43,809 nt of DNA, taken from contig JAVHOF010000087.1 of assembly GCA_036169915.1 (NCBI GenBank), forward strand, positions 1 to 43,809, written 5' to 3'. Position 1 is the first letter of the stretch; every line of letters starts with the position of its first letter. The notes under the pieces are model-generated. The model had not been told where the DNA came from. It made no database searches and was given only the letters and a program-made list of their open reading frames with translations. The translations under genes were made by a program, and so were the position numbers. This document shows positions 1 through 28,864 of the stretch, piece by piece. Source of the stretch: Candidatus Pacearchaeota archaeon. Lineage in GTDB: Archaea > Nanobdellota > Nanobdellia > Pacearchaeales > GW2011-AR1.

Positions 1-456
1 GATATCAACCAGAATTGTCTCTTCATCAAAGGAAATTATGTCCGTATTTATTTTTGAGAAATATGGAATGCCTTTATGTGTAACTCCTTTTTTATCGTCG
101 AATGAAATTGAGTCGCCTCCATTTTTAAAAGCGAGAACTGTGTTTTCTTGACTAATAACCAACAACTCCAATTTTCTTGATTCATCCGCCAGATTCATCC
201 GAGCCTCTGTTTCCAAGGTATTGCGGCCATTGGTTCTTTTGGTATCAATTACCGATTTTTCTGAAATCAGGTCATCAAGTTTTTTTTGTTCCTTTATTAC
301 AACAGCATTTTTTGCCTTCACCATCGCCTCACGAAGTTCTGAAAAATCATCAGGAGTCAACTTGCTCAGAAATTCATGCGCGAGTTCTTCGTGTGATTTT
401 TTCACATCACCGCCAGTGTCAAAATGCCTGATGAATTTTATTTGTGGATCAATCAT
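1..456 (-). CDS. 5' part of a protein with [F]xxGG motifs; runs off the left edge
   Basis: Not in the ORF track. Manual translation from ATG at 456 gives MIDPQIKFIRHFDTGGDVKK...AFKNGGDSISF... with no stop down to position 1. Confidence 0.85.
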   Translation of the reverse strand, partial: MIDPQIKFIRHFDTGGDVKKSHEELAHEFLSKLTPDDFSELREAMVKAKNAVVIKEQKKLDDLISEKSVIDTKRTNGRNTLETEARMNLADESRKLELLVISQENTVLAFKNGGDSISFDDKKGVTHKGIPYFSKINTDIISFDEETILVDI

Positions 457-487
457 GATGTTTTTTTACGTTTTCAAAGTTTTGCAC

Positions 488-495
488 TATATTTG
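488..495 (+). promoter_or_regulatory. Bacteroidota-type -7 promoter element TATATTTG
   Basis: Matches TAnnTTTG and lies immediately upstream of hairpin unit 1. Confidence 0.55.
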
Positions 496-500
496 TAGTG

Positions 501-570
501 TGTTTGATTGATTGAGTAACCTCAGCGGAATGGGACTGCTGCTTGCTCTACCAATCAAACGTTTTATTTT
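501..570 (+). ncRNA. Candidate structured small RNA, copy 1
   Basis: Stems 502-510/552-560, 514-519/543-548 and 523-528/536-541; loop AAUGGGA; followed by a U-rich tract; G-U pairs favour the + strand. Confidence 0.6.
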
Positions 571-614
571 CCACACTACCACCATCTTTCTTTTTTTCAA
601 AATTTTATGGTAAC

Positions 615-622
615 TACATTTG
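615..622 (+). promoter_or_regulatory. Bacteroidota-type -7 promoter element TACATTTG
   Basis: Matches TAnnTTTG and lies immediately upstream of hairpin unit 2. Confidence 0.55.
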
Positions 623-624
623 TG

Positions 625-692
625 TGCTTGATTAGTTTTGTAACGTCGGCGCAATTGGAGCGCCGTTTACTTAACCAATCAAGCATTTTTTT
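625..692 (+). ncRNA. Candidate structured small RNA, copy 2
   Basis: Stems 625-633/677-685, 640-643/667-670 and 647-652/660-665; loop AAUUGGA; followed by U7; same architecture as copy 1 with compensatory changes. Confidence 0.6.
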
Positions 693-3043
693 CATACGCC
701 AAAGATCATTTTCAATACTGGGTTTCCTGTTATGCCATGGTTAGAATTAATGCTTCCTCCCTTTTCAAAATACTGATCCATTAATTTTGCGGTTGGCCTG
801 ATCCATACTTCATTCGAATCAATTGGGTTTTCTGAAACTCTTATAAAATGATTGTCGATGGCCTGTTGGATTCCCTCCATGCGAGCTTCGTGCTTTGGAT
901 TATCCTTAAGAAAAGTCTTGCGTTGAATCTTTCCGTCTTTCATGTATTGGACAAAATCCTTACTGTGTCCTGTTAATTCTGAAATATCACAGCCATTCTC
1001 CATCTTATCAATTTTTTCAGTCAACATCTTTACCTCAAAATTTGCTGAATTCAAATCGGCATTGCTCTTTGCATTTCTTACGCGAAGTCTTGCATCCGAT
1101 AATTCCTTTTTCAATTCTGACATGATCAAATCAGCAATTCCGCCACCGGTTTCCATTTTATCTTCTGAAACCAACTTCCATTCGCCTTGTTTGATATATT
1201 TGTCAACCTTTTCTTTCCCAAAAGGATGATATCCACCAGTTCCACCAAAATTAGTAAACCAATACTCATCACCTTTTATTTCGCGAAGAAACAACCCTTT
1301 CCCAACAGCATTCAAAACTTTATCTCCAACATTTAATCCATTGAATGAATCAAGTCTTTTCCAGTCAACTCCTCCTCCTGTTTCCATTTTATTTGATAAT
1401 TTTAAAACAAGTTTATCAGAAACTTCTCGTGGTAATTTTGTTTTATATCCAGATGCCTGAATATAAACTGTGGCCGTTGGATATTTTGAATAATCTTCAA
1501 TGAATTTATCTGTGTCGGCTTCCCCATATGAAAAACTTACGTTTTCAGAAAGTGTGTCCGATTGGTTTTTAAGCAGAATCGGCTTATTGAATCTTGGAAG
1601 AAAATATTCCGTAACCTTCTCCAGAAATTTTCCCCATGTTTCACCTTTAAACAAGGCGCCTGTAACTTTTTTATCCAATATTTCTCCGCCACGTTCCATT
1701 TTATTTTCAGAAAGCCATTTGTCTAATCCCAGTTTTACTTTTTCATACATCTTCCTATATTTTCCTCCTTTATCATCCCTTGAATTGAATTTATGAAAAT
1801 ATTCTTCACCTTCTTTGCTTATTCCATAACCATAATTACCAACAATAGATTCCGCCATTGCCAATCTATATTTCTCTCCATTAAATTCAAAATCTATATC
1901 ACCGGTATTTTCCCCTCTTTTTGTAATGTGGTATCCTATTATTTTGATATTGCCGACTGCGCCTCCTTGCTCCATTTTATCGGAAAACACACCCGCTCCG
2001 TCCAAATAATATACCAAGTATTCTTCCGGCGTCACATTGAACTTATCGGCGCCTTCGTCAATCAATTGTATTATTTCTTCAGCCGATTCCCCTTGTGCAA
2101 AATATGGATTGTTGTGTGGATGGTTTACGGCAACATAAGGCAATCCCCTGTTGATTTCCACAAGAGGCGCCATTCCTTTTTTATCTTCCACATTATAATA
2201 TTCTTTCTTGATTTTTTTAAATGTTCCAAGAATATTTGATTTTATTTCTCCGCCAGTTGCCATTTTGGTTGTATTATTAAATTTTTCAAATTCAATTGCA
2301 TTCAATTGCCATATGGTTCTGAAAGCAATGTCCTGTTTGTTGTAAGTGTTTGTTTCCTTCAATAAATTTCCATCCTTATCATAAACCCTTATGTGGAAAT
2401 CAGGGCTGTAATGATTTTCTGTTGTGGCTGATTTTCTTTTTTCATCCTTCACATCAACTTTGTATTCGTCAATGAGAAATGTTTTTTCTCGGCCAATTGG
2501 ATCAGAAAAGTCCGTCTTGAAATATTCAATCATGTTGATTCCAAAATCGTGATTATCGTGGTATTTGGCAGCATATTCATTCTTCTCGGGGTTGCTGATT
2601 TTATCCTTCATGTCCGGGAGATGCTTGAAGAAAAATTCCTTTTCAACATATTCAGAAACCAATCTTCCCCTTTTTGAATCGACCTCAATGTTGATTTGTC
2701 CCGATGGCAGATTTTCAATGTTAAGAATTCCGGCTTTGTCCTTTAAATTCTTATTAACCTTGTTTCTGATTGCAACAGCTTCCTTGAAATTATTTTCAGT
2801 TGACATGAATTCCAAACTGTTTCCAATGCCCGACAATGTTTTTGCACAATCCATTCCAACACGCGCCTCTTTCCCTTCAGCGGATTCTATGACAGCTACG
2901 TTTGCAATCAGCTTTCCGCAGTTGTCACATATCTGTGGATTTTCCATGATGCCACCGGTGTAATATGCATCGGTGATTTTATAAGTTGTGTTGATCGGAA
3001 GATTTCTCCGTACAACTTTTTTTATTTTTTTTTCGTCGCTCAT
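692..3043 (-). CDS. Modular 783-aa protein segmented by KMExGG motifs; putative virion-internal or polyvalent protein
   Basis: N-terminal CxxC...VGMDC Zn motif; motifs KMATGG, KMEQGG, KMERGG, KMETGG (x2), KMENGC, FEKGG; C-terminus GNPVLKMIFGV. The function is inferred. Confidence 0.8.
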   Translation of the reverse strand: MSDEKKIKKVVRRNLPINTTYKITDAYYTGGIMENPQICDNCGKLIANVAVIESAEGKEARVGMDCAKTLSGIGNSLEFMSTENNFKEAVAIRNKVNKNLKDKAGILNIENLPSGQINIEVDSKRGRLVSEYVEKEFFFKHLPDMKDKISNPEKNEYAAKYHDNHDFGINMIEYFKTDFSDPIGREKTFLIDEYKVDVKDEKRKSATTENHYSPDFHIRVYDKDGNLLKETNTYNKQDIAFRTIWQLNAIEFEKFNNTTKMATGGEIKSNILGTFKKIKKEYYNVEDKKGMAPLVEINRGLPYVAVNHPHNNPYFAQGESAEEIIQLIDEGADKFNVTPEEYLVYYLDGAGVFSDKMEQGGAVGNIKIIGYHITKRGENTGDIDFEFNGEKYRLAMAESIVGNYGYGISKEGEEYFHKFNSRDDKGGKYRKMYEKVKLGLDKWLSENKMERGGEILDKKVTGALFKGETWGKFLEKVTEYFLPRFNKPILLKNQSDTLSENVSFSYGEADTDKFIEDYSKYPTATVYIQASGYKTKLPREVSDKLVLKLSNKMETGGGVDWKRLDSFNGLNVGDKVLNAVGKGLFLREIKGDEYWFTNFGGTGGYHPFGKEKVDKYIKQGEWKLVSEDKMETGGGIADLIMSELKKELSDARLRVRNAKSNADLNSANFEVKMLTEKIDKMENGCDISELTGHSKDFVQYMKDGKIQRKTFLKDNPKHEARMEGIQQAIDNHFIRVSENPIDSNEVWIRPTAKLMDQYFEKGGSINSNHGITGNPVLKMIFGV

Positions 3044-5035: not shown

Positions 5036-5200
5036 TTACGGTGCAACGGCATAGGTTATCATTGTTGCTTTAAGAATGTTGCTTTTGGAGAATATCCCGA
5101 CCGCAATGAAAACAACGCCGATGCCGATCATTATTCCGGAAAGCGCCTTTCCCGGCAATGACGCCTCGAAGTGTTTCAACTCATCGACAAAAGAAGACAT
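5036..5200 (-). CDS. Small 54-aa single-TM membrane protein
   Basis: Manual translation: MSSFVDELKHFEASLPGKALSGIMIGIGVVFIAVGIFSKSNILKATMITYAVAP*. Confidence 0.65.
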   Translation of the reverse strand: MSSFVDELKHFEASLPGKALSGIMIGIGVVFIAVGIFSKSNILKATMITYAVAP

Positions 5201-5268
5201 TGTGAAATGGGGTTAATTTCAGGGGAGAAAAGTACGAAAAAATATCCTGATGGGCAAATGGTGTTTTC

Positions 5269-5427
5269 TCAGTGGCAAAAATCATTGAAAAGCCTGAAAA
5301 GTCCATATGCAATATATCCAAACATGCCCAACAGCAACAGAATCTTGAACCACTGGTCTTTTGGCGGTTCCGGTGGCTTTGGAAGATGTTTCTTTTTTTG
5401 TAGAAACAGGCGATTTCTCAATCTCAT
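5269..5427 (-). CDS. Small membrane protein with a basic/Pro-rich N-terminus
   Basis: MRLRNRLFLQKKKHLPKPPEPPKDQWFKILLLLGMFGYIAYGLF...; ATG after an A-rich leader. Confidence 0.55.
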   Translation of the reverse strand: MRLRNRLFLQKKKHLPKPPEPPKDQWFKILLLLGMFGYIAYGLFRLFNDFCH

Positions 5428-6067
5428 TTTTTTTGTTTTTATTCGCGTGTGTGTGCACGATTTTACCTCCAAAAATTTTACTGTGCAATTTTATTTTTCA
5501 ACTTATGAATGTTTTTATTCACAGGAAGGAAAATCACATTCGTTTTCCGGCTGATTTTGTGGTTTTGAAACTTTTTTAAACATGCCCTTAAAAATAACGC
5601 ATTAGGCGTTTTTTTTCATCAAAAGGGTGCTTGGAGGGGTAGGATGCCATAAATGGGGTAGGATTCGTCTCAGGCGATAAAAATGCGTTTTTGAAATTTC
5701 TGGAATTTTATTTTGAAATTTTGTAATAATTATTGTTTTTTGAAAAATAATAAATCAGAAGTTAGAAGTTAGAGTTATAGCCATATAAGGTAGTAGCAAA
5801 ATTGTTTTGTACTTATAAAGTAAAATATTGAAAATCAAATGATTGATATTTTATTGTCAAAATGTCATGTTTTTTAAAATGACTTTTCCGCCAGAAAAAA
5901 TATTTTTTGAAAAATAATGGTGCAGCAAATAGTCTGGCAAAATAGTACTTATGTACTTATATATGATAATAAATATAATAAGTATAATTTTGGTGCTATA
6001 TTGTAAATAGTAAAATTGTTTTACATTTACGATTGTTTTATAAGTACAAGTACAAAACAACGACAAT
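5428..6067. other. Long AT-rich divergent intergenic region; control region or possible origin
   Basis: Longest stretch without a credible ORF; A/T tracts; short GAAGTTA repeats near 5758-5778; TAATTTTG at 5985-5992 on the + strand. Confidence 0.4.
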
Positions 6068-26224: not shown

Positions 26225-28864
26225 TTAGGTATTTGTTTTGTTGATGATTCGGTTTACAATGTCACAAACGAATTTTATTTCTTCTTCAGTGAGTGACTGG
26301 TGATTGGGCAAATAACACCCGTATTCATCGGCCTTGTTTGCAAATGGCAAATCTTTTTTACCAAATAATTTCTCATAAAATGGATGAAGGCCAATATTCC
26401 CGCTGATCAATGGCCGCACTTCCACATTGTTTCCACGTAGCGCTTCAACGATTTCATCCAGCTTCGGGGAGATCAATGGATAGCCAAGATTTGAAGTCAC
26501 ACAATTTTCCCGCTCAACCGGTTTCCAGTAATCATTTTCAATAAGGGAATTGTACAGAAGGAAATTCCTGTGCCTTTTCTCAATGAACGATCCCAATTTA
26601 TCCAGCTGCCGCAATCCCAAGAAAGCGCCAATCTCATTGTTGCGGAAATTAAATCCATCTGTATGGAAACGGTAAAGCTGATTGAACTTTGTGGTTCCCT
26701 GAATCTTCCTTAACTCCCTTCTTTTTTCCTCGCTGATATCGCGATCCCATCCGTGGCTTCTTTTCATCTTCAGGATATTGAAATAGCTCTCGTCATCAGT
26801 GGTGATCATTCCACCTTCCACAGTAGAGTTATGCAAACAGATAGGTTGTTGCCCCCCGATAAAATTTTCATGAATAGGCACAGAAAAATCATACACATAT
26901 TCATAATCAGGCACTATTTCTTCTATGCTCTTTACCTGCAAAAGTGTTAAGTCTCCATATTTTAATTTTTGCGCTCCAATGCTATTGGATAAATATTCTT
27001 TTTGTTTTAATAGTTCAACAAATTTTTTCTTCCCTGTTTTTTTTAATTTTTCACTATAATATGGAACTTCAAATGTTTCTTTTTCTGCTAATGATGAATG
27101 ATAGCAATTTTTGTCAACTTTTAATATTTTTCCGTCCTTTGTTAATTCGACATTATACATCCTAAAAGACCTTACACCTTTTGAATGTGATAAGTTTTTA
27201 TTATTATTAATTCTAAATGTTTTCTCTTTGTTGGTTTGGACAATTGACCCCCTTACGCCAAACATAGATAACATATAAGATACATCGTTAATTAAATCAT
27301 ATGATATACTTGCTACGCTTAATCTATTTTTATAAAAAGTTCCATCACCACAAAAGTAAGCGTATAGGAATGCCAATTTGCATTCATCGTTAAATTTCCA
27401 AACCATGTCTGGTATTCTCTTGTTTTTAGCCCCCCTTTTTATTCCTAGAAATGATTCAAAAAAATATTGAATCGTGGCAGACGAAATGAGCAGTATGATT
27501 ACATTACCTTTATTTGAAAGAGATGTTTCGAGCCCGAATGTTTTTTCAACTATGTCACATACATCATTTATGTATTCATGTTCGTCTTTATGAAATACCA
27601 GAGCGAGCCCAGCTTCAGAATAGCAACCTTCTGCTAAAAAATACCCAATCAGCCTAGATAATTCAATAGTAACAGGAACATATAATGGCAAATATTTATT
27701 ATTTGGAGTACGTTTATAAGCGATTCTAAGAGACTCTGTTTTTTTTGTTAAATATTTTAATGGCAAAACGCCCCTTGCTTTATAATTATCTATTTGTCTC
27801 CTGTGTGGGCTTCTACAAGTACCCCTAGGAGCATTTTTTAAATTATCCTTATCGTAATTTATGACGAAGAATTTATCTTCGTCCTTTTTGCAGAACGAAT
27901 AAAAGTCCAATGTCTCAATAATGTCTGGAGGAGTCGGTATTCTTTTTGGGACAACTATATAATCACCCTTTTTTATTTCTATACCAGTTTTTGCGGTTAT
28001 TTTTAAAGAAGAATCGCAAACAGAAAACACACTATGGTCTTCTGTTATTTCAACTGTTCGGTTATTTCTTAAAGTTATCCTGAATATTTTTTTTTCTAAA
28101 TCTATCTTATGTTTTATTATTGCAGAAGGCTTGGCGAATAATGTTTTATTATTTTCATTATTAAATGAAATCACCTTTATCTTTTCTGGCGTTTTTTGGT
28201 ATTTGTCAAATATCTCAGAGATTGGGTATATTTTGTATGTTCCATTTTCATCAATAAATGGAATCGGAGTTTTTGGAGCAACACTTGTAATATGGCCATA
28301 GTAGCTACTGCACGTTGCCATCAGCGCATAATTTTCAATTCTGCGCGCATTAAAGGTCGATCCCTGCGATTCGCAACCATCGAGTAATAGTGTCACGCCA
28401 TATTTTGCACACAACCCACTGATCGCATCCATATCCGGAACCATTCCCAATACGGAAACCAAAAACAATCCGGCAGGTTTTTCCTTCTTGAAAATGTCTT
28501 CGAGATTATTCAATTCAACACTGAGATCGGAAAGGTTGACGTCACAAAGAATCGGTTCCAATCCCAATTGTATGATCGGGGAAATTGTTGTGATCCATGC
28601 AATCCCGGGAATGACAACCTTTTTATTCTTCAACCCGCCATCTGAAATCAATGTTGAGATCGCAAGAAGATTTGCGCTTGATCCCGAGTTTACGAAAACA
28701 GCGTATTTGCTTCCAACATTGGCAGCATATTTTTCCTCATACTCAACCGTGAGTTTTGATTTTGTAAGCTGTGGTGTTGGGTCTTGTTGAAGCCATGCGC
28801 AAAGTGCGTCAATGTCAGATTTATCAATTGTATCGGAAGCGAGCTTGATTGGTAACTGAGCCAT
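26225..28864 (-). CDS. colD: DegT/DnrJ-family PLP enzyme, ColD-like GDP-4-keto-6-deoxymannose 3-dehydratase, containing an intein
   Basis: VNSGSSANL, W.T, D.CES.G, RSHGWDR; the spliced motif SSYYGHITSTVEGGM has His at the usual Lys position; extein 393 aa. Confidence 0.85.
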   Translation of the reverse strand: MAQLPIKLASDTIDKSDIDALCAWLQQDPTPQLTKSKLTVEYEEKYAANVGSKYAVFVNSGSSANLLAISTLISDGGLKNKKVVIPGIAWITTISPIIQLGLEPILCDVNLSDLSVELNNLEDIFKKEKPAGLFLVSVLGMVPDMDAISGLCAKYGVTLLLDGCESQGSTFNARRIENYALMATCSSYYGHITSVAPKTPIPFIDENGTYKIYPISEIFDKYQKTPEKIKVISFNNENNKTLFAKPSAIIKHKIDLEKKIFRITLRNNRTVEITEDHSVFSVCDSSLKITAKTGIEIKKGDYIVVPKRIPTPPDIIETLDFYSFCKKDEDKFFVINYDKDNLKNAPRGTCRSPHRRQIDNYKARGVLPLKYLTKKTESLRIAYKRTPNNKYLPLYVPVTIELSRLIGYFLAEGCYSEAGLALVFHKDEHEYINDVCDIVEKTFGLETSLSNKGNVIILLISSATIQYFFESFLGIKRGAKNKRIPDMVWKFNDECKLAFLYAYFCGDGTFYKNRLSVASISYDLINDVSYMLSMFGVRGSIVQTNKEKTFRINNNKNLSHSKGVRSFRMYNVELTKDGKILKVDKNCYHSSLAEKETFEVPYYSEKLKKTGKKKFVELLKQKEYLSNSIGAQKLKYGDLTLLQVKSIEEIVPDYEYVYDFSVPIHENFIGGQQPICLHNSTVEGGMITTDDESYFNILKMKRSHGWDRDISEEKRRELRKIQGTTKFNQLYRFHTDGFNFRNNEIGAFLGLRQLDKLGSFIEKRHRNFLLYNSLIENDYWKPVERENCVTSNLGYPLISPKLDEIVEALRGNNVEVRPLISGNIGLHPFYEKLFGKKDLPFANKADEYGCYLPNHQSLTEEEIKFVCDIVNRIINKTNT
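26828..28285 (-). mobile_element. Intein (486 aa) with LAGLIDADG endonuclease
   Basis: N-terminal SVAPKTP; block B ITEDHSV; LIGYFLAEG and FLYAYFCGDG; C-terminal YVYDFSVP.HENF...CLHN followed by +1 Ser. Confidence 0.93.

What the first reader, a model, noticed from the sequence alone, without database searches (positions are those of the whole stretch)
488..692. Two tandem, structurally homologous small-RNA genes with covarying stems
Seen: two units about 125 nt apart, each with a TAnnTTTG box, a ~60-nt three-part hairpin and a U tract. Shared features are an outer stem (G[U/C]UUGAUU with AAUCAA[A/G]C), GUAAC[C/G]UC forming a 3x1 internal loop, a 6-bp top stem and the heptaloop AAU[G/U]GGA. 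Differences between copies preserve pairing: CAGCGG/CUGCUG versus CGGCGC/GCGCCG, and U-A versus C-G in the outer stem. G-U pairs work on the + strand only, opposite to the flanking genes. Known: TAnnTTTG is the Bacteroidota -7 element, and CsrA/RsmA proteins bind GGA in hairpin loops. Inference: an independently transcribed phage sRNA family, possibly a protein decoy, an antitoxin or CRISPR mimic, or a packaged RNA. I do not recognise it as a known family.
Basis: partly seen in the sequence, partly recalled or inferred. Interest (0 to 1): 0.85.

Follow-up and report, generated by a model that had tools for sequence, protein, structure and literature searches.

The report
Orphan pair of antisense hairpin-RNA cassettes
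Two neighbouring copies of a small promoter-hairpin-terminator cassette that elsewhere lies backwards inside the tail of a phage nuclease-like gene sit here without that gene, and they appear to belong to an undescribed family of small regulatory RNAs.

Summary
Window 498-568 and 622-692 are 73% identical direct repeats. Each has a TAnnTTTG box, a three-part hairpin with a heptaloop, and a T tract, all on the + strand.

They are not a local oddity. The same cassette occurs in more than 50 places in viral contigs, Bacteroidota genomes and metagenomes. It nearly always lies on the strand opposite to, and directly after, the coding sequence of a MuF_C domain, a predicted PBECR RNase fold, in polyvalent or stand-alone proteins.

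The constraint is on nucleic acid:
- stems covary;
- third codon positions are unusually conserved;
- the loop is read in two codon phases;
- non-coding copies exist, for example between tRNA genes.

G-U pairs, the promoter box and the T tract all favour the + strand.

In the window the MuF_C domain is gone and the frame through both units is broken, yet the RNA features are intact.

Best reading: cis-antisense sRNA genes that work like lambda OOP or a type I antitoxin RNA. Transcription is not shown. There is no Rfam match. The tail peptide may also be real.

The parts
471..483 (+). Conserved block TTTTCAAAGTTTT upstream of the unit 1 box. It is the spacer of the putative promoter, and on the minus strand it is the QNFEN codons of the tail.
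   Evidence: Repeat D2. The same block is seen in relatives.
488..495 (+). Unit 1 -7 box TATATTTG (TAnnTTTG).
   Evidence: It ends 6 nt before the outer stem. The consensus is quoted from PMC7366714 (passages).
502..560 (+). Unit 1 three-part hairpin: outer 502-510/552-560, middle 514-519/543-548, top CAGCGG/CUGCUG 523-528/536-541, loop AAUGGGA 529-535.
   Evidence: Model R1 scores 73.7 bits.
562..570 (+). Unit 1 T tract TTTTATTTT.
   Evidence: Mean 6.9 T in the 12 columns after the stem across 39 elements.
594..606 (+). Conserved block TTTTCAAAATTTT upstream of the unit 2 box.
   Evidence: Repeat D2.
615..622 (+). Unit 2 -7 box TACATTTG.
   Evidence: It ends 3 nt before the outer stem.
624..686 (+). 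Unit 2 three-part hairpin: outer 624-633/677-686, middle 635-637/673-675 and 640-643/667-670, top CGGCGC/GCGCCG 647-652/660-665, loop AAUUGGA 653-659.
   Evidence: R1 scores 77.1 bits. The core is identical to that of L248, where it is in frame after a MuF_C domain.
686..692 (+). Unit 2 T tract (7 T).
597..695 (-). 32-codon ORF through unit 2 (MKKMLDWLSKRRSNCADVTKLIKHTNVVTIKF). Its ATG overlaps the TGA of the upstream gene, and it is in the -1 frame relative to that gene. It is a remnant of a MuF_C tail.
449..598 (-). Broken tail frame through unit 1: ..NFEKKKDGGSVENKTFDW-TAG(548-550)-SKQQSHSAEVTQSIKHTTNIVQNFENVKKHHD-stop. The stop overlaps the start of the next gene.
   Evidence: tblastn of MuF_C-tail proteins hits 464-568 and 600-707 only.
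692..3043 (-). Upstream gene P0002, 783 aa. It is a polyvalent-type multidomain protein with six K-M-E-x-G-G linkers and no MuF_C domain.
   Evidence: Its homologues P0003-P0005 share the N-terminal module and the linkers, and P0004 carries ART-PolyVal.
1..456 (-). Downstream gene, cut by the contig end. Its start is 32 nt from the unit 1 box. No family match.

Best explanation
Each unit is a small gene read from the + strand. A Bacteroidota-type promoter (the -7 box TAnnTTTG, with a T-rich -33 region 19 nt upstream) would start an RNA a few bases before a roughly 60-nt three-part hairpin. The base of that hairpin, followed by a U tract, would end the transcript, giving an sRNA of about 65-70 nt.

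The family belongs to the 3' tail of genes that encode a MuF_C (PBECR RNase-fold) domain. There the sRNA is perfectly antisense to the last 30 or so codons of the mRNA. I infer that it pairs with that mRNA tail, initiating through the heptaloop, and lowers expression of the MuF_C or polyvalent gene and perhaps of the overlapping next gene. This is how lambda OOP acts on cII and how 3'-overlapping type I antitoxin RNAs act on their toxin mRNAs.

In this window the MuF_C domain has been lost and the tail frame is broken in three places. The two cassettes are therefore orphans. They are either still made and act in trans on related tails, or they are recent relics.

Shown: the anatomy, the family, the covariation, the nucleic-acid-level constraint, and the link to MuF_C. 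Inferred: transcription, polarity, and the pairing mechanism.
For: Family and structure:
- 39 elements align without gaps.
- 87.0% of 897 cells pair, against 70.6% in shuffles (0 of 500 shuffles reach it) and 31-49% when the partners are slid.
- 16 of 23 pairs change on both sides. This includes 14 of 17 pairs in the outer and middle helix, most of which (positions 10-24/54-68) was no part of any search pattern.
- There are 21 top-stem/loop combinations with 12 different 5' arms, all complementary.

Unbiased sample. 30 viral loci were fetched with a MuF_C-only protein alignment and gave 18 distinct downstream sequences:
- The best 75-nt fold averages -31.5 kcal/mol, against -19.0 in control windows of the same genes (Mann-Whitney p 1.4e-8).
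- An exact box is present in 15 of 18.
- A T-rich run follows the stem in 16 of 18.

Nucleic acid rather than peptide:
- Third-codon-position conservation is 0.714 in the 21 tail codons outside the search pattern, against 0.533 in 97 MuF_C codons (p 3.1e-5). Amino-acid conservation is equal (0.632 against 0.659).
- The loop UCCAAUU is read as TCC AAT T in most elements but as xTC CAA TTx (LQLP) in L189, L190 and a Stx-phage gene.
- Non-coding copies exist: between two tRNA genes on the tRNA strand (L051), after a stop and before a terminator (L130 and L132), and just past the stop of stand-alone MuF_C genes (L139 and L151).

Polarity:
- G-U pairs that work on + only fill 88 cells. A-C/C-A pairs, which would work on minus only, fill 18 cells.
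- An exact TAnnTTTG ends 0-12 nt (mostly 6) before the stem in 20 of 39 elements, against 0.8% of background 20-nt windows.
- T tracts follow the stem on + only.

Partner:
- Pfam MuF_C matched 7 of 7 abutting proteins of this kind that I tested.
- No conserved protein neighbour was seen. The next genes are pyrF, Dus, an LPD38 protein or unknowns.

Window: both units keep the box, the hairpin and the T tract although the coding frame is broken.
Against: - No transcript has been seen. No RNA run holds the stretch, so promoter use, ends and strand are inferences.
- The minus strand folds at least as well.
- The first copy is translated as part of the protein in every intact MuF_C locus examined, except that a second copy in L139 and L151 lies past the stop.
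- AlphaFold models the tail as two confident helices (pLDDT 90-94). A peptide role is therefore real competition, and dual constraint could inflate the nucleotide conservation.
- Many aligned elements are related, so the counts are not independent events.
- 12 of the 15 sequences in the codon test were found through a nucleotide pattern in the core. I excluded those 9 codons, but the neighbouring codons may still be biased.
- A cis-antisense RNA does not need the near-invariant 25-nt core that is seen across distant hosts. That fits protein recognition better.
- Some second copies in tandem arrays have no box of their own.
- Foldseek gave no PDB match (0 with E <= 0.001). The RNase fold of MuF_C therefore rests on Pfam naming and on Iyer et al. 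2017.
- The window copies may simply be young relics.
Confidence: 0.45

Rival explanations
1. The hairpin RNA is a direct partner of the MuF_C RNase-like domain: an inhibitor, decoy or processed substrate. That would make it a type III-like antitoxin or an RNA 'immunity' factor. It would be made by the element to keep its own effector silent, and orphan copies (this window, tRNA arrays, Prevotellaceae chromosomes) would protect against foreign MuF_C effectors.
For: - A near-invariant 25-nt core and loop occur across distant hosts and contexts. A 7-nt loop and a 3x1 internal loop are conserved while the stems covary. This pattern is typical of a protein-binding site.
- Tandem arrays of 2-3 units occur in 7 loci: the window, L155, L137, L139, L151, L180 and L189.
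- Orphan copies lie far from any MuF_C gene: L051, and the Prevotellaceae-type loci L143, L148 and L156 plus L159.
- Stand-alone MuF_C genes of 134-224 aa sit among housekeeping genes with no protein partner.
- MuF_C keeps the His and Ser that Iyer et al. give as the PBECR active configuration. These are invariant H and R-S in A3 and A5 (PMC5512222 section 19 read whole).
- Other BECR toxins have protein immunity partners (preprint 10.64898/2026.08.28.747851, passages).
Against: - The geometry is not that of known type III systems, where the RNA lies upstream of the toxin on the same strand.
- No sign of processing was seen.
- Toxicity and RNase activity of MuF_C are untested, and my model found no solved fold match.
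- The loop varies (10 variants).
Confidence: 0.2
2. In this window the units are only decaying remains of a protein-coding tail, a helix-loop-helix that follows MuF_C. They have no present function, and the hairpin persists by inertia.
For: - Peptide homology to MuF_C tails.
- Three frame-breaking lesions and loss of the MuF_C domain.
- The tail is modelled as two helices at pLDDT 90-94.
- In intact loci the first copy is translated.
Against: - The two units are 27% diverged yet both keep the box, all three helices and the T tract, with 3 compensatory changes between them.
- The family-wide evidence for a nucleic-acid constraint stands.
- Non-coding copies are maintained elsewhere.
Confidence: 0.15
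3. The conserved element works on the sense (minus) strand mRNA or as DNA. It could be an mRNA stabiliser or pause site at a domain boundary, or a conserved joint at which modules of polyvalent genes recombine.
For: - The minus strand folds as well.
- The element sits at module boundaries of mosaic polyvalent proteins, next to K-M-x-G-G linkers.
- The same core is joined to unrelated upstream proteins. P0001 and P0002 show no similarity. In L249 it follows a non-MuF_C module.
Against: - G-U cells outnumber A-C cells 88 to 18 in favour of +.
- The box at a fixed 6-nt distance and the T tract have no role on the minus strand.
- The element shares the strand of the tRNA genes in L051.
- Covariation argues for a folded single strand rather than duplex DNA.
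Confidence: 0.1
4. One reading: a CsrA/RsmA-titrating decoy, a CRISPR-repeat mimic, or a packaged RNA.
For: A GGA sits in the heptaloop of both window units.
Against: - There is one loop per unit.
- The GGA is replaced by GUA, GTA-type or ACA loops in relatives.
- No locus shows an array with spacers. The most seen is 3-4 copies with conserved flanks.
- Nothing bears on packaging.
Confidence: 0.03

Closest known systems
Lambda OOP RNA (antisense to the 3' end of cII)
   Same: A short phage RNA with its own promoter and its own terminator hairpin, transcribed against a coding gene and overlapping its 3' end. 52 bases of oop overlap the end of cII (PMC5869508, passages). The size class and geometry match the relatives of the window units.
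   Different: There is no sequence relation. The host phylum and promoter type differ. The partner gene is a MuF_C domain and not a regulator. Here the RNA core is conserved across many unrelated elements, occurs in tandem, and occurs as orphans. Action through RNase III is only an analogy.
Type I toxin-antitoxin systems with 3'-overlapping antisense RNA (for example txpA/RatA and bsrG/SR4; recalled, not looked up)
   Same: A cis-encoded antisense sRNA with its own promoter and terminator overlaps the 3' end of the partner ORF. Compact two-part loci are scattered in chromosomes and mobile elements.
   Different: The partner is a 130-220 aa RNase-fold domain, or a module of a giant protein, and not a small membrane peptide. 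Toxicity is unknown.
Type III toxin-antitoxin systems (ToxIN-like; recalled)
   Same: A structured RNA, sometimes in tandem direct repeats, is coupled to a predicted endoribonuclease.
   Different: Here the RNA is on the opposite strand at the 3' end. In type III systems it lies upstream on the same strand. The protein fold differs, and there is no evidence of processing.
MuF_C / PBECR domains of polyvalent proteins (Pfam PF18819; Iyer et al. 2017, PMC5512222)
   Same: The window units are homologous to the DNA that follows this domain in 7 of 7 Pfam-tested relatives. The upstream gene P0002 is of the polyvalent type.
   Different: The paper describes proteins only, and no RNA is mentioned in the passages or in section 19, which I read. 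The window has no MuF_C domain.
Rickettsia palindromic elements (in-frame palindromic repeats; recalled)
   Same: A palindromic element is translated in frame inside proteins and is also found in non-coding and tRNA-adjacent DNA.
   Different: Here the position is fixed, directly after one domain family. It carries a promoter box and a T tract. There is no sign of dispersal by insertion.

Membership tests
Any Rfam 15 family | Covariance-model score at or above the family's gathering threshold. | tested here: not met
   0 matches in the whole window. At E <= 10 in 400-760 only SNORA29 (E 2.4) and mir-5014 (E 6.2) appeared. In 12 relatives' loci only tRNA and tmRNA matched. L197 gave none relevant.
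Bacteroidota sRNA gene (sigma-ABfr promoter plus intrinsic terminator) | -7 box TAnnTTTG close to the 5' end. | tested here: met
   Boxes at 488-495 and 615-622. 20 of 39 relatives have an exact box 0-12 nt before the stem, against a background of 0.8%. The consensus is from PMC7366714 (passages).
Bacteroidota sRNA gene (sigma-ABfr promoter plus intrinsic terminator) | Stable hairpin followed by a U tract on the same strand. | tested here: met
   The simple scan flags only the top stem of unit 2 as terminator-like, because the long interrupted stems lie outside its rule.
Bacteroidota sRNA gene (sigma-ABfr promoter plus intrinsic terminator) | A mapped transcription start and a discrete transcript. 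| not testable with these tools
   No RNA holder was listed.
Type I antitoxin RNA | Cis-encoded antisense RNA that overlaps the partner ORF. | tested here: inconclusive
   The geometry is met in relatives: 14 of 34 true pattern hits lie in an open antisense frame of 150 or more codons. In the window the ORF is broken.
Type I antitoxin RNA | The toxin is a small hydrophobic peptide. | tested here: not met
   The partner is a MuF_C domain of about 100 aa inside proteins of 134 to more than 3000 aa.
Type III toxin-antitoxin | RNA repeats upstream of the toxin gene and on its strand. | tested here: not met
   The elements lie on the opposite strand, at or past the 3' end.
Type III toxin-antitoxin | The toxin cuts the repeat RNA and stays bound to it. 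| not testable with these tools
   Needs biochemistry.
MuF_C tail (DNA that follows PF18819) | Lies directly 3' of a MuF_C-coding segment. | tested here: not met
   In the window, Pfam finds no family in P0002, and tblastn with 10 MuF_C proteins hits only the two tails. In relatives the feature is met.
MuF_C tail (DNA that follows PF18819) | Homology of the minus-strand reading to the tail peptide. | tested here: met
   50-64% identity over 22-36 aa; the L248 tail.
CsrA/RsmA-sequestering RNA | Several conserved GGA motifs in loops. | tested here: not met
   There is one loop per unit, and 10 loop variants include GUA and ACA. Presence of csrA in the hosts was not tested.
CRISPR repeat or solitary-repeat mimic | Regular array with unique spacers, or likeness to a host repeat. 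| tested here: inconclusive
   No array was seen in any locus: at most 3-4 copies, with conserved flanks. Likeness to host repeats was not tested.
Intrinsic terminator of the flanking minus-strand genes | T tract after the hairpin on the minus strand. | tested here: not met
   On the minus strand an A run precedes the hairpin and no T run follows it. The scan finds no terminator-like site on the minus strand in 400-800.

The most novel reading that the evidence does not exclude
The hairpin is an RNA immunity factor for a BECR-fold RNase effector. It is written backwards into the effector's own coding tail and is kept through changes of reading frame, from Bacteroidota phages to Stx-converting phages of E. 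coli. Free-standing copies in phage tRNA arrays, in this contig and next to tRNA genes in Prevotellaceae chromosomes would act as decoys that disarm MuF_C effectors injected by rival phages.
Probability: 0.15. Interest if true: 0.85.

Novelty: new variant of a known kind. Interest (0 to 1): 0.62.

Why it matters
Polyvalent proteins and MuF-linked BECR nucleases are thought to be injected effectors in phage-host conflict. How the producing element controls them is unknown, and for other BECR toxins only protein immunity is described.

A conserved small RNA gene embedded antisense in the tail of the MuF_C module would be a new control layer, and possibly an RNA antidote. It would also be a clear case of one DNA stretch carrying a promoter, an RNA structure and two protein helices at once.

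Stand-alone loci in cultivable Chitinophaga isolates make the idea directly testable. For annotation, it warns that short 'intergenic' hairpin repeats after polyvalent genes can be the remains of coding tails.

Tried and rejected
Searches that found nothing or too little:
- tRNA or tmRNA: none in the window.
- Rfam: nothing relevant.
- Cultured phage records and plasmids by blastn with a 99-nt element: no match. The first 8 kb of the window against phages: no match.
- First viral pattern: 11 stretches, of which only L005 is real.
After a stem filter only a handful were real.
- Genome scan: 27 stretches. I dropped L147, L149 and L158 as chance because their flanks lack stems (by eye).
- Metagenome scan: 61 stretches, of which only 6 are true by model R1.

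Limits of model R1. It is narrow:
- It misses the diverged element on the MAG's own contig C131 and those of L174, L182, L189 and L190.
- It found 0 of 150 other genomes of the MAG's phylum and 0 of 150 of the phylum of G151. Both runs used stricter filters and scored 29 candidates per genome. The family is therefore sporadic, and these zeros are weak.

Other negative or unused results:
- P0002 relatives in viral contigs: none.
- Foldseek of the MuF_C-plus-tail model against the PDB: 0 matches at E <= 0.001. I could not confirm the BECR fold.
- No RNA holder was listed for the window. Run X5 laid nothing.
- sigma-70 scans: 1 weak site in the window, no more than in shuffles. None in the Stx-phage locus, where the hairpin's z-score is only -1.7.
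- Reading TGA or TAG as sense was rejected. TGA ends 25 of 48 long minus-strand ORFs, and reading through it does not join P0002 to the tails.
- A programmed -1 frameshift at A_AAC_CCA (about 722-728) that would join P0002 to unit 2 is possible on paper but has no support.
Supplementary Data 2 of PMC7366714 (lists of antisense RNAs) and the supplements of PMC5512222 could bear on whether such an RNA was seen before.
- Not-in-print claim: it rests on (core word, 0 papers; PBECR plus antitoxin, 3 papers, none about RNA).
Full report
THE OBSERVATION

The interval 457-691 lies between two minus-strand genes: a 783-aa ORF (692..3043) and an ORF that starts at 456. It holds two 71-nt direct repeats, 498-568 and 622-692, which are 73% identical and 124 nt apart. 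Two shorter co-spaced repeats lie upstream of them.

Each repeat is preceded by TAnnTTTG (488-495 and 615-622). Each folds on the + strand into a three-part hairpin with a 6-bp top stem and a heptaloop (AAUGGGA and AAUUGGA). Each is followed by a T tract. The + strand folds beat all 200 shuffles (z -3.64 and -5.64). The minus-strand folds are as good or better (z -5.13 and -7.70), so energy does not choose the strand.

Over the 23 consensus pairs, the copies differ by 3 compensatory double changes and 2 G-U/Watson-Crick switches. Unitigs from 3 runs, which may be the source samples, carry 1-1500 unchanged.

IT IS A FAMILY, AND IT HAS A CODING FACE

Rfam has nothing, and there is no tRNA.

Pattern scans with the shared core found the following:
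- 7 stretches in viral contigs, 6 of them distinct because L130 and L132 carry the same element.
- 27 stretches in one-genome-per-species contigs. I keep 24 of these as real. 22 carry Bacteroidota-type titles (Prevotellaceae, Chitinophaga, Flavobacteriaceae, Azobacteroides and others; the phylum assignment is my own knowledge). The other 2 are MAGs labelled otherwise.

The first relative, L005, changed the picture. There the element lies inside the last 50 codons of a 2359-aa minus-sense ORF, and the opposite-strand reading is conserved with the window. L005 reads ..LEWIGKQQSNSADVTNTIKN..VLQNFEN. Unit 1 reads FDW-TAG-SKQQSHSAEVTQSIKHTTNIVQNFEN. Unit 2 reads MLDWLSKRRSNCADVTKLIKHT.

That ORF carries PBECR1 and, ending just before the element, MuF_C. 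Of 34 true pattern hits, 14 lie in an open antisense frame of 150 or more codons in the same phase. Their upstream 120 residues align as one MuF_C subfamily.

Pfam confirmed MuF_C in 7 of 7 abutting proteins of this kind that I tested. These include stand-alone genes of 134-224 aa among housekeeping genes in Chitinophaga isolates and in termite-symbiont MAGs. In those loci the next gene is Dus or pyrF, or the neighbour is an LD-carboxypeptidase.

Iyer et al. 2017 (PMC5512222; passages, section 19 read whole) classify MuF-C as a PBECR domain. This is a predicted metal-independent RNase fold whose active form has a His and a Ser/Thr, found in virion-packaged polyvalent proteins. Our subfamily keeps an invariant His and an invariant Arg-Ser.

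NUCLEIC ACID OR PEPTIDE?

Five results point to a constraint on the nucleic acid.

1. Covariation. In an ungapped alignment of 39 elements, 87.0% of 897 cells pair, against 70.6% in shuffles (0 of 500 reach it) and 31-49% for slid partners. 16 of 23 pairs change on both sides. This includes 14 of 17 pairs in the outer and middle helix, most of which (positions 10-24/54-68) was never in a search pattern. Across all variants there are 21 top-stem/loop combinations with 12 different 5' arms, all complementary.

2. An unbiased sample. A MuF_C-only protein alignment fetched 30 viral loci, which gave 18 distinct downstream sequences.
   - Their best 75-nt fold averages -31.5 kcal/mol, against -19.0 for control windows in the same genes (p 1.4e-8).
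   - 15 of 18 have an exact box.
   - 16 of 18 have a T-rich run after the stem.
   - The tail peptide meanwhile diverges, for example SNSSTPANVDD, STHPSNPGAS and RLQLPQVRKLP.

3. Codon positions. The major-allele frequency at positions 1, 2 and 3 is 0.724, 0.826 and 0.533 in 97 MuF_C codons. In the 21 tail codons outside the search pattern it is 0.714, 0.841 and 0.714 (position 3, p 3.1e-5). Amino-acid conservation is equal.

4. Phase. The loop UCCAAUU is read as TCC AAT T in most elements. It is read as xTC CAA TTx (LQLP) in L189, L190 and a polyvalent gene of Stx-converting phages.

5. Non-coding copies:
   - between two tRNA genes on the tRNA strand, in a contig that also carries a CUA-anticodon tRNA (L051);
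   - after a + strand stop and before a canonical terminator (L130 and L132);
   - past the stop of stand-alone MuF_C genes (L139 and L151);
   - a Prevotellaceae type, seen downstream of tRNA genes in L148, L150 and L156 and amid glycoside-hydrolase and membrane-protein genes in L143 and L148.

Against a purely RNA reading, the first copy is translated in intact loci. AlphaFold (15-row alignment, mean pLDDT 88.0, pTM 0.83) models the tail as two helices at pLDDT 90-94. I therefore regard the stretch as dual-coded.

WHICH STRAND?

- G-U pairs that work only on the + strand fill 88 cells. A-C/C-A pairs fill 18. Without the two most frequent sites the counts are 49 and 18.
- An exact TAnnTTTG ends 0-12 nt (mostly exactly 6) before the outer stem in 20 of 39 elements, and lies within 75 nt in 28 of 39. 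Only 0.8% of background 20-nt windows hold one.
- Its two synonymous third positions on the coding strand are fixed.
- A TTTG or TTG usually lies 19 nt upstream of the box.
- The consensus -7 TAnnTTTG and -33 TTTG for sigma-ABfr is quoted from Ryan et al. 2020 (PMC7366714, passages).
- T tracts follow the stem on + only.
- The tRNA-array and terminator contexts agree with +.

No transcript data exist for this DNA, so the polarity is inferred.

THE WINDOW COPIES

The contig is a whole contig (C87) of a 1.56-Mb MAG. Its GC is 37.9%, against a bin mean of 30.6%. The relatives of the MAG's phylum have 0.5-1.6-Mb genomes, and none of the 150 searched holds the element. The contig is therefore probably mis-binned.

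None of 48 long ORFs on C87 has a Shine-Dalgarno-like motif. Positions 8-43 kb encode sugar and glycan enzymes. I cannot say that the contig is a phage.

P0002 has no MuF_C and no similarity to P0001. It is nevertheless of the polyvalent type. It has six K-M-E-x-G-G linkers. Its three homologues share the N-terminal module and the linkers, and one of them carries ART-PolyVal.

A metagenome relative, L248, has the core of unit 2 letter for letter. There it is in frame after MuF_C (residues 488-586) and before a K-M-N-G-G linker.

Measured against such relatives, the window has:
- lost the MuF_C domain; tblastn finds only the two tails;
- placed unit 2 in the -1 frame of P0002;
- gained 4 nt between the unit 2 hairpin and the NFE block;
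- acquired a TAG in unit 1.

The boxes, helices and T tracts survive in both units. Tandem copies are a recurrent trait: the window, L155, L137, L139, L151, L180 and L189. The MAG's contig C131 carries a MuF_C-like gene with a diverged element of its own: outer stem of 11 bp, top stem UCGGGG/CCCUGA, loop AAUUACA.

MECHANISM

I commit to a cis-antisense sRNA cassette, working like lambda OOP. OOP has its own promoter and its own terminator hairpin, and 52 bases overlap the 3' end of cII (PMC5869508, passages). It also resembles 3'-overlapping type I antitoxin RNAs (recalled). I give this 0.45.

The main rival is a direct RNA partner of the RNase-like domain (0.2). The near-invariant core, the orphans and the tandem arrays fit this rival better.

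The other rivals are a relic without function in this window (0.15) and a sense-strand or DNA-level role (0.1).

NOVELTY

No Rfam family matches. No paper holds the core word. No RNA partner is mentioned in the PBECR/BECR literature that I could read. Supplements were closed. I rate it a new variant of a known kind (antisense sRNA or RNA antidote) with an unusual dual-coded, domain-linked form.

Noticed in passing
window 26225-28864 (-): An 879-aa DegT/DnrJ-type aminotransferase is interrupted by an intein with a LAGLIDADG domain (Pfam).
   Followed up: no
window 1-43809; G000: The contig's GC is 37.9% against a bin mean of 30.6% (sd 3.9). The bin's phylum relatives have 0.5-1.6-Mb genomes and lack the element. 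The contig is probably mis-binned.
   Followed up: partly
window 692-3043 (-): P0002 carries six K-M-E-x-G-G motifs between modules. Homologues P0003-P0005 and L248 and L249 have the same linker. It may be a cleavage or joint motif of polyvalent proteins.
   Followed up: partly
window about 722-728 (-): The heptamer A_AAC_CCA lies in the P0002 frame, with the -1 frame open into the unit 2 tail. A frameshift is conceivable but unsupported.
   Followed up: no
G000 contig C131 about 5100-5700: A second MuF_C-like gene in the same bin has a diverged antisense hairpin with an 11-bp outer stem and loop AAUUACA. Model R1 misses it.
   Followed up: partly
L051 599-810 and 2502-2574: A viral contig carries the hairpin between two CAU-anticodon tRNA genes, and 1.7 kb away a CUA-anticodon (amber-reading) tRNA.
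   Followed up: no
L197 (NC_049922.1 54990-56740) 1040-1130: In Stx-converting phages a hairpin follows the MuF_C-like part of the LPD5-domain gene on the opposite strand: a 12-bp outer stem, GGGC-AAUUGGA-GCCC, and a T-rich run. 182 records hold the protein match. The fold z-score is only -1.7 and no sigma-70 site was found.
   Followed up: partly
L143, L148, L150, L156, L160, L134: A Prevotellaceae type has the box 40 nt upstream, an extra 5' hairpin and the outer stem ACGCCC/GGGCGU. In L148, L150 and L156 it lies downstream of tRNA genes. The neighbours tested in L143, L148 and L156 have no MuF_C.
   Followed up: partly
window, all frames: The share of the contig covered by open frames of 200 or more codons rises from 0.61 to 1.19 if TGA is read as sense. 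Other contigs of the bin rise far less. TGA is nevertheless a normal stop here, ending 25 of 48 long ORFs.
   Followed up: partly
window 1-30: Two other unitigs (2102 and 60 nt) overlap the first 30 bases in three runs, so the contig ends at an assembly branch point.
   Followed up: no
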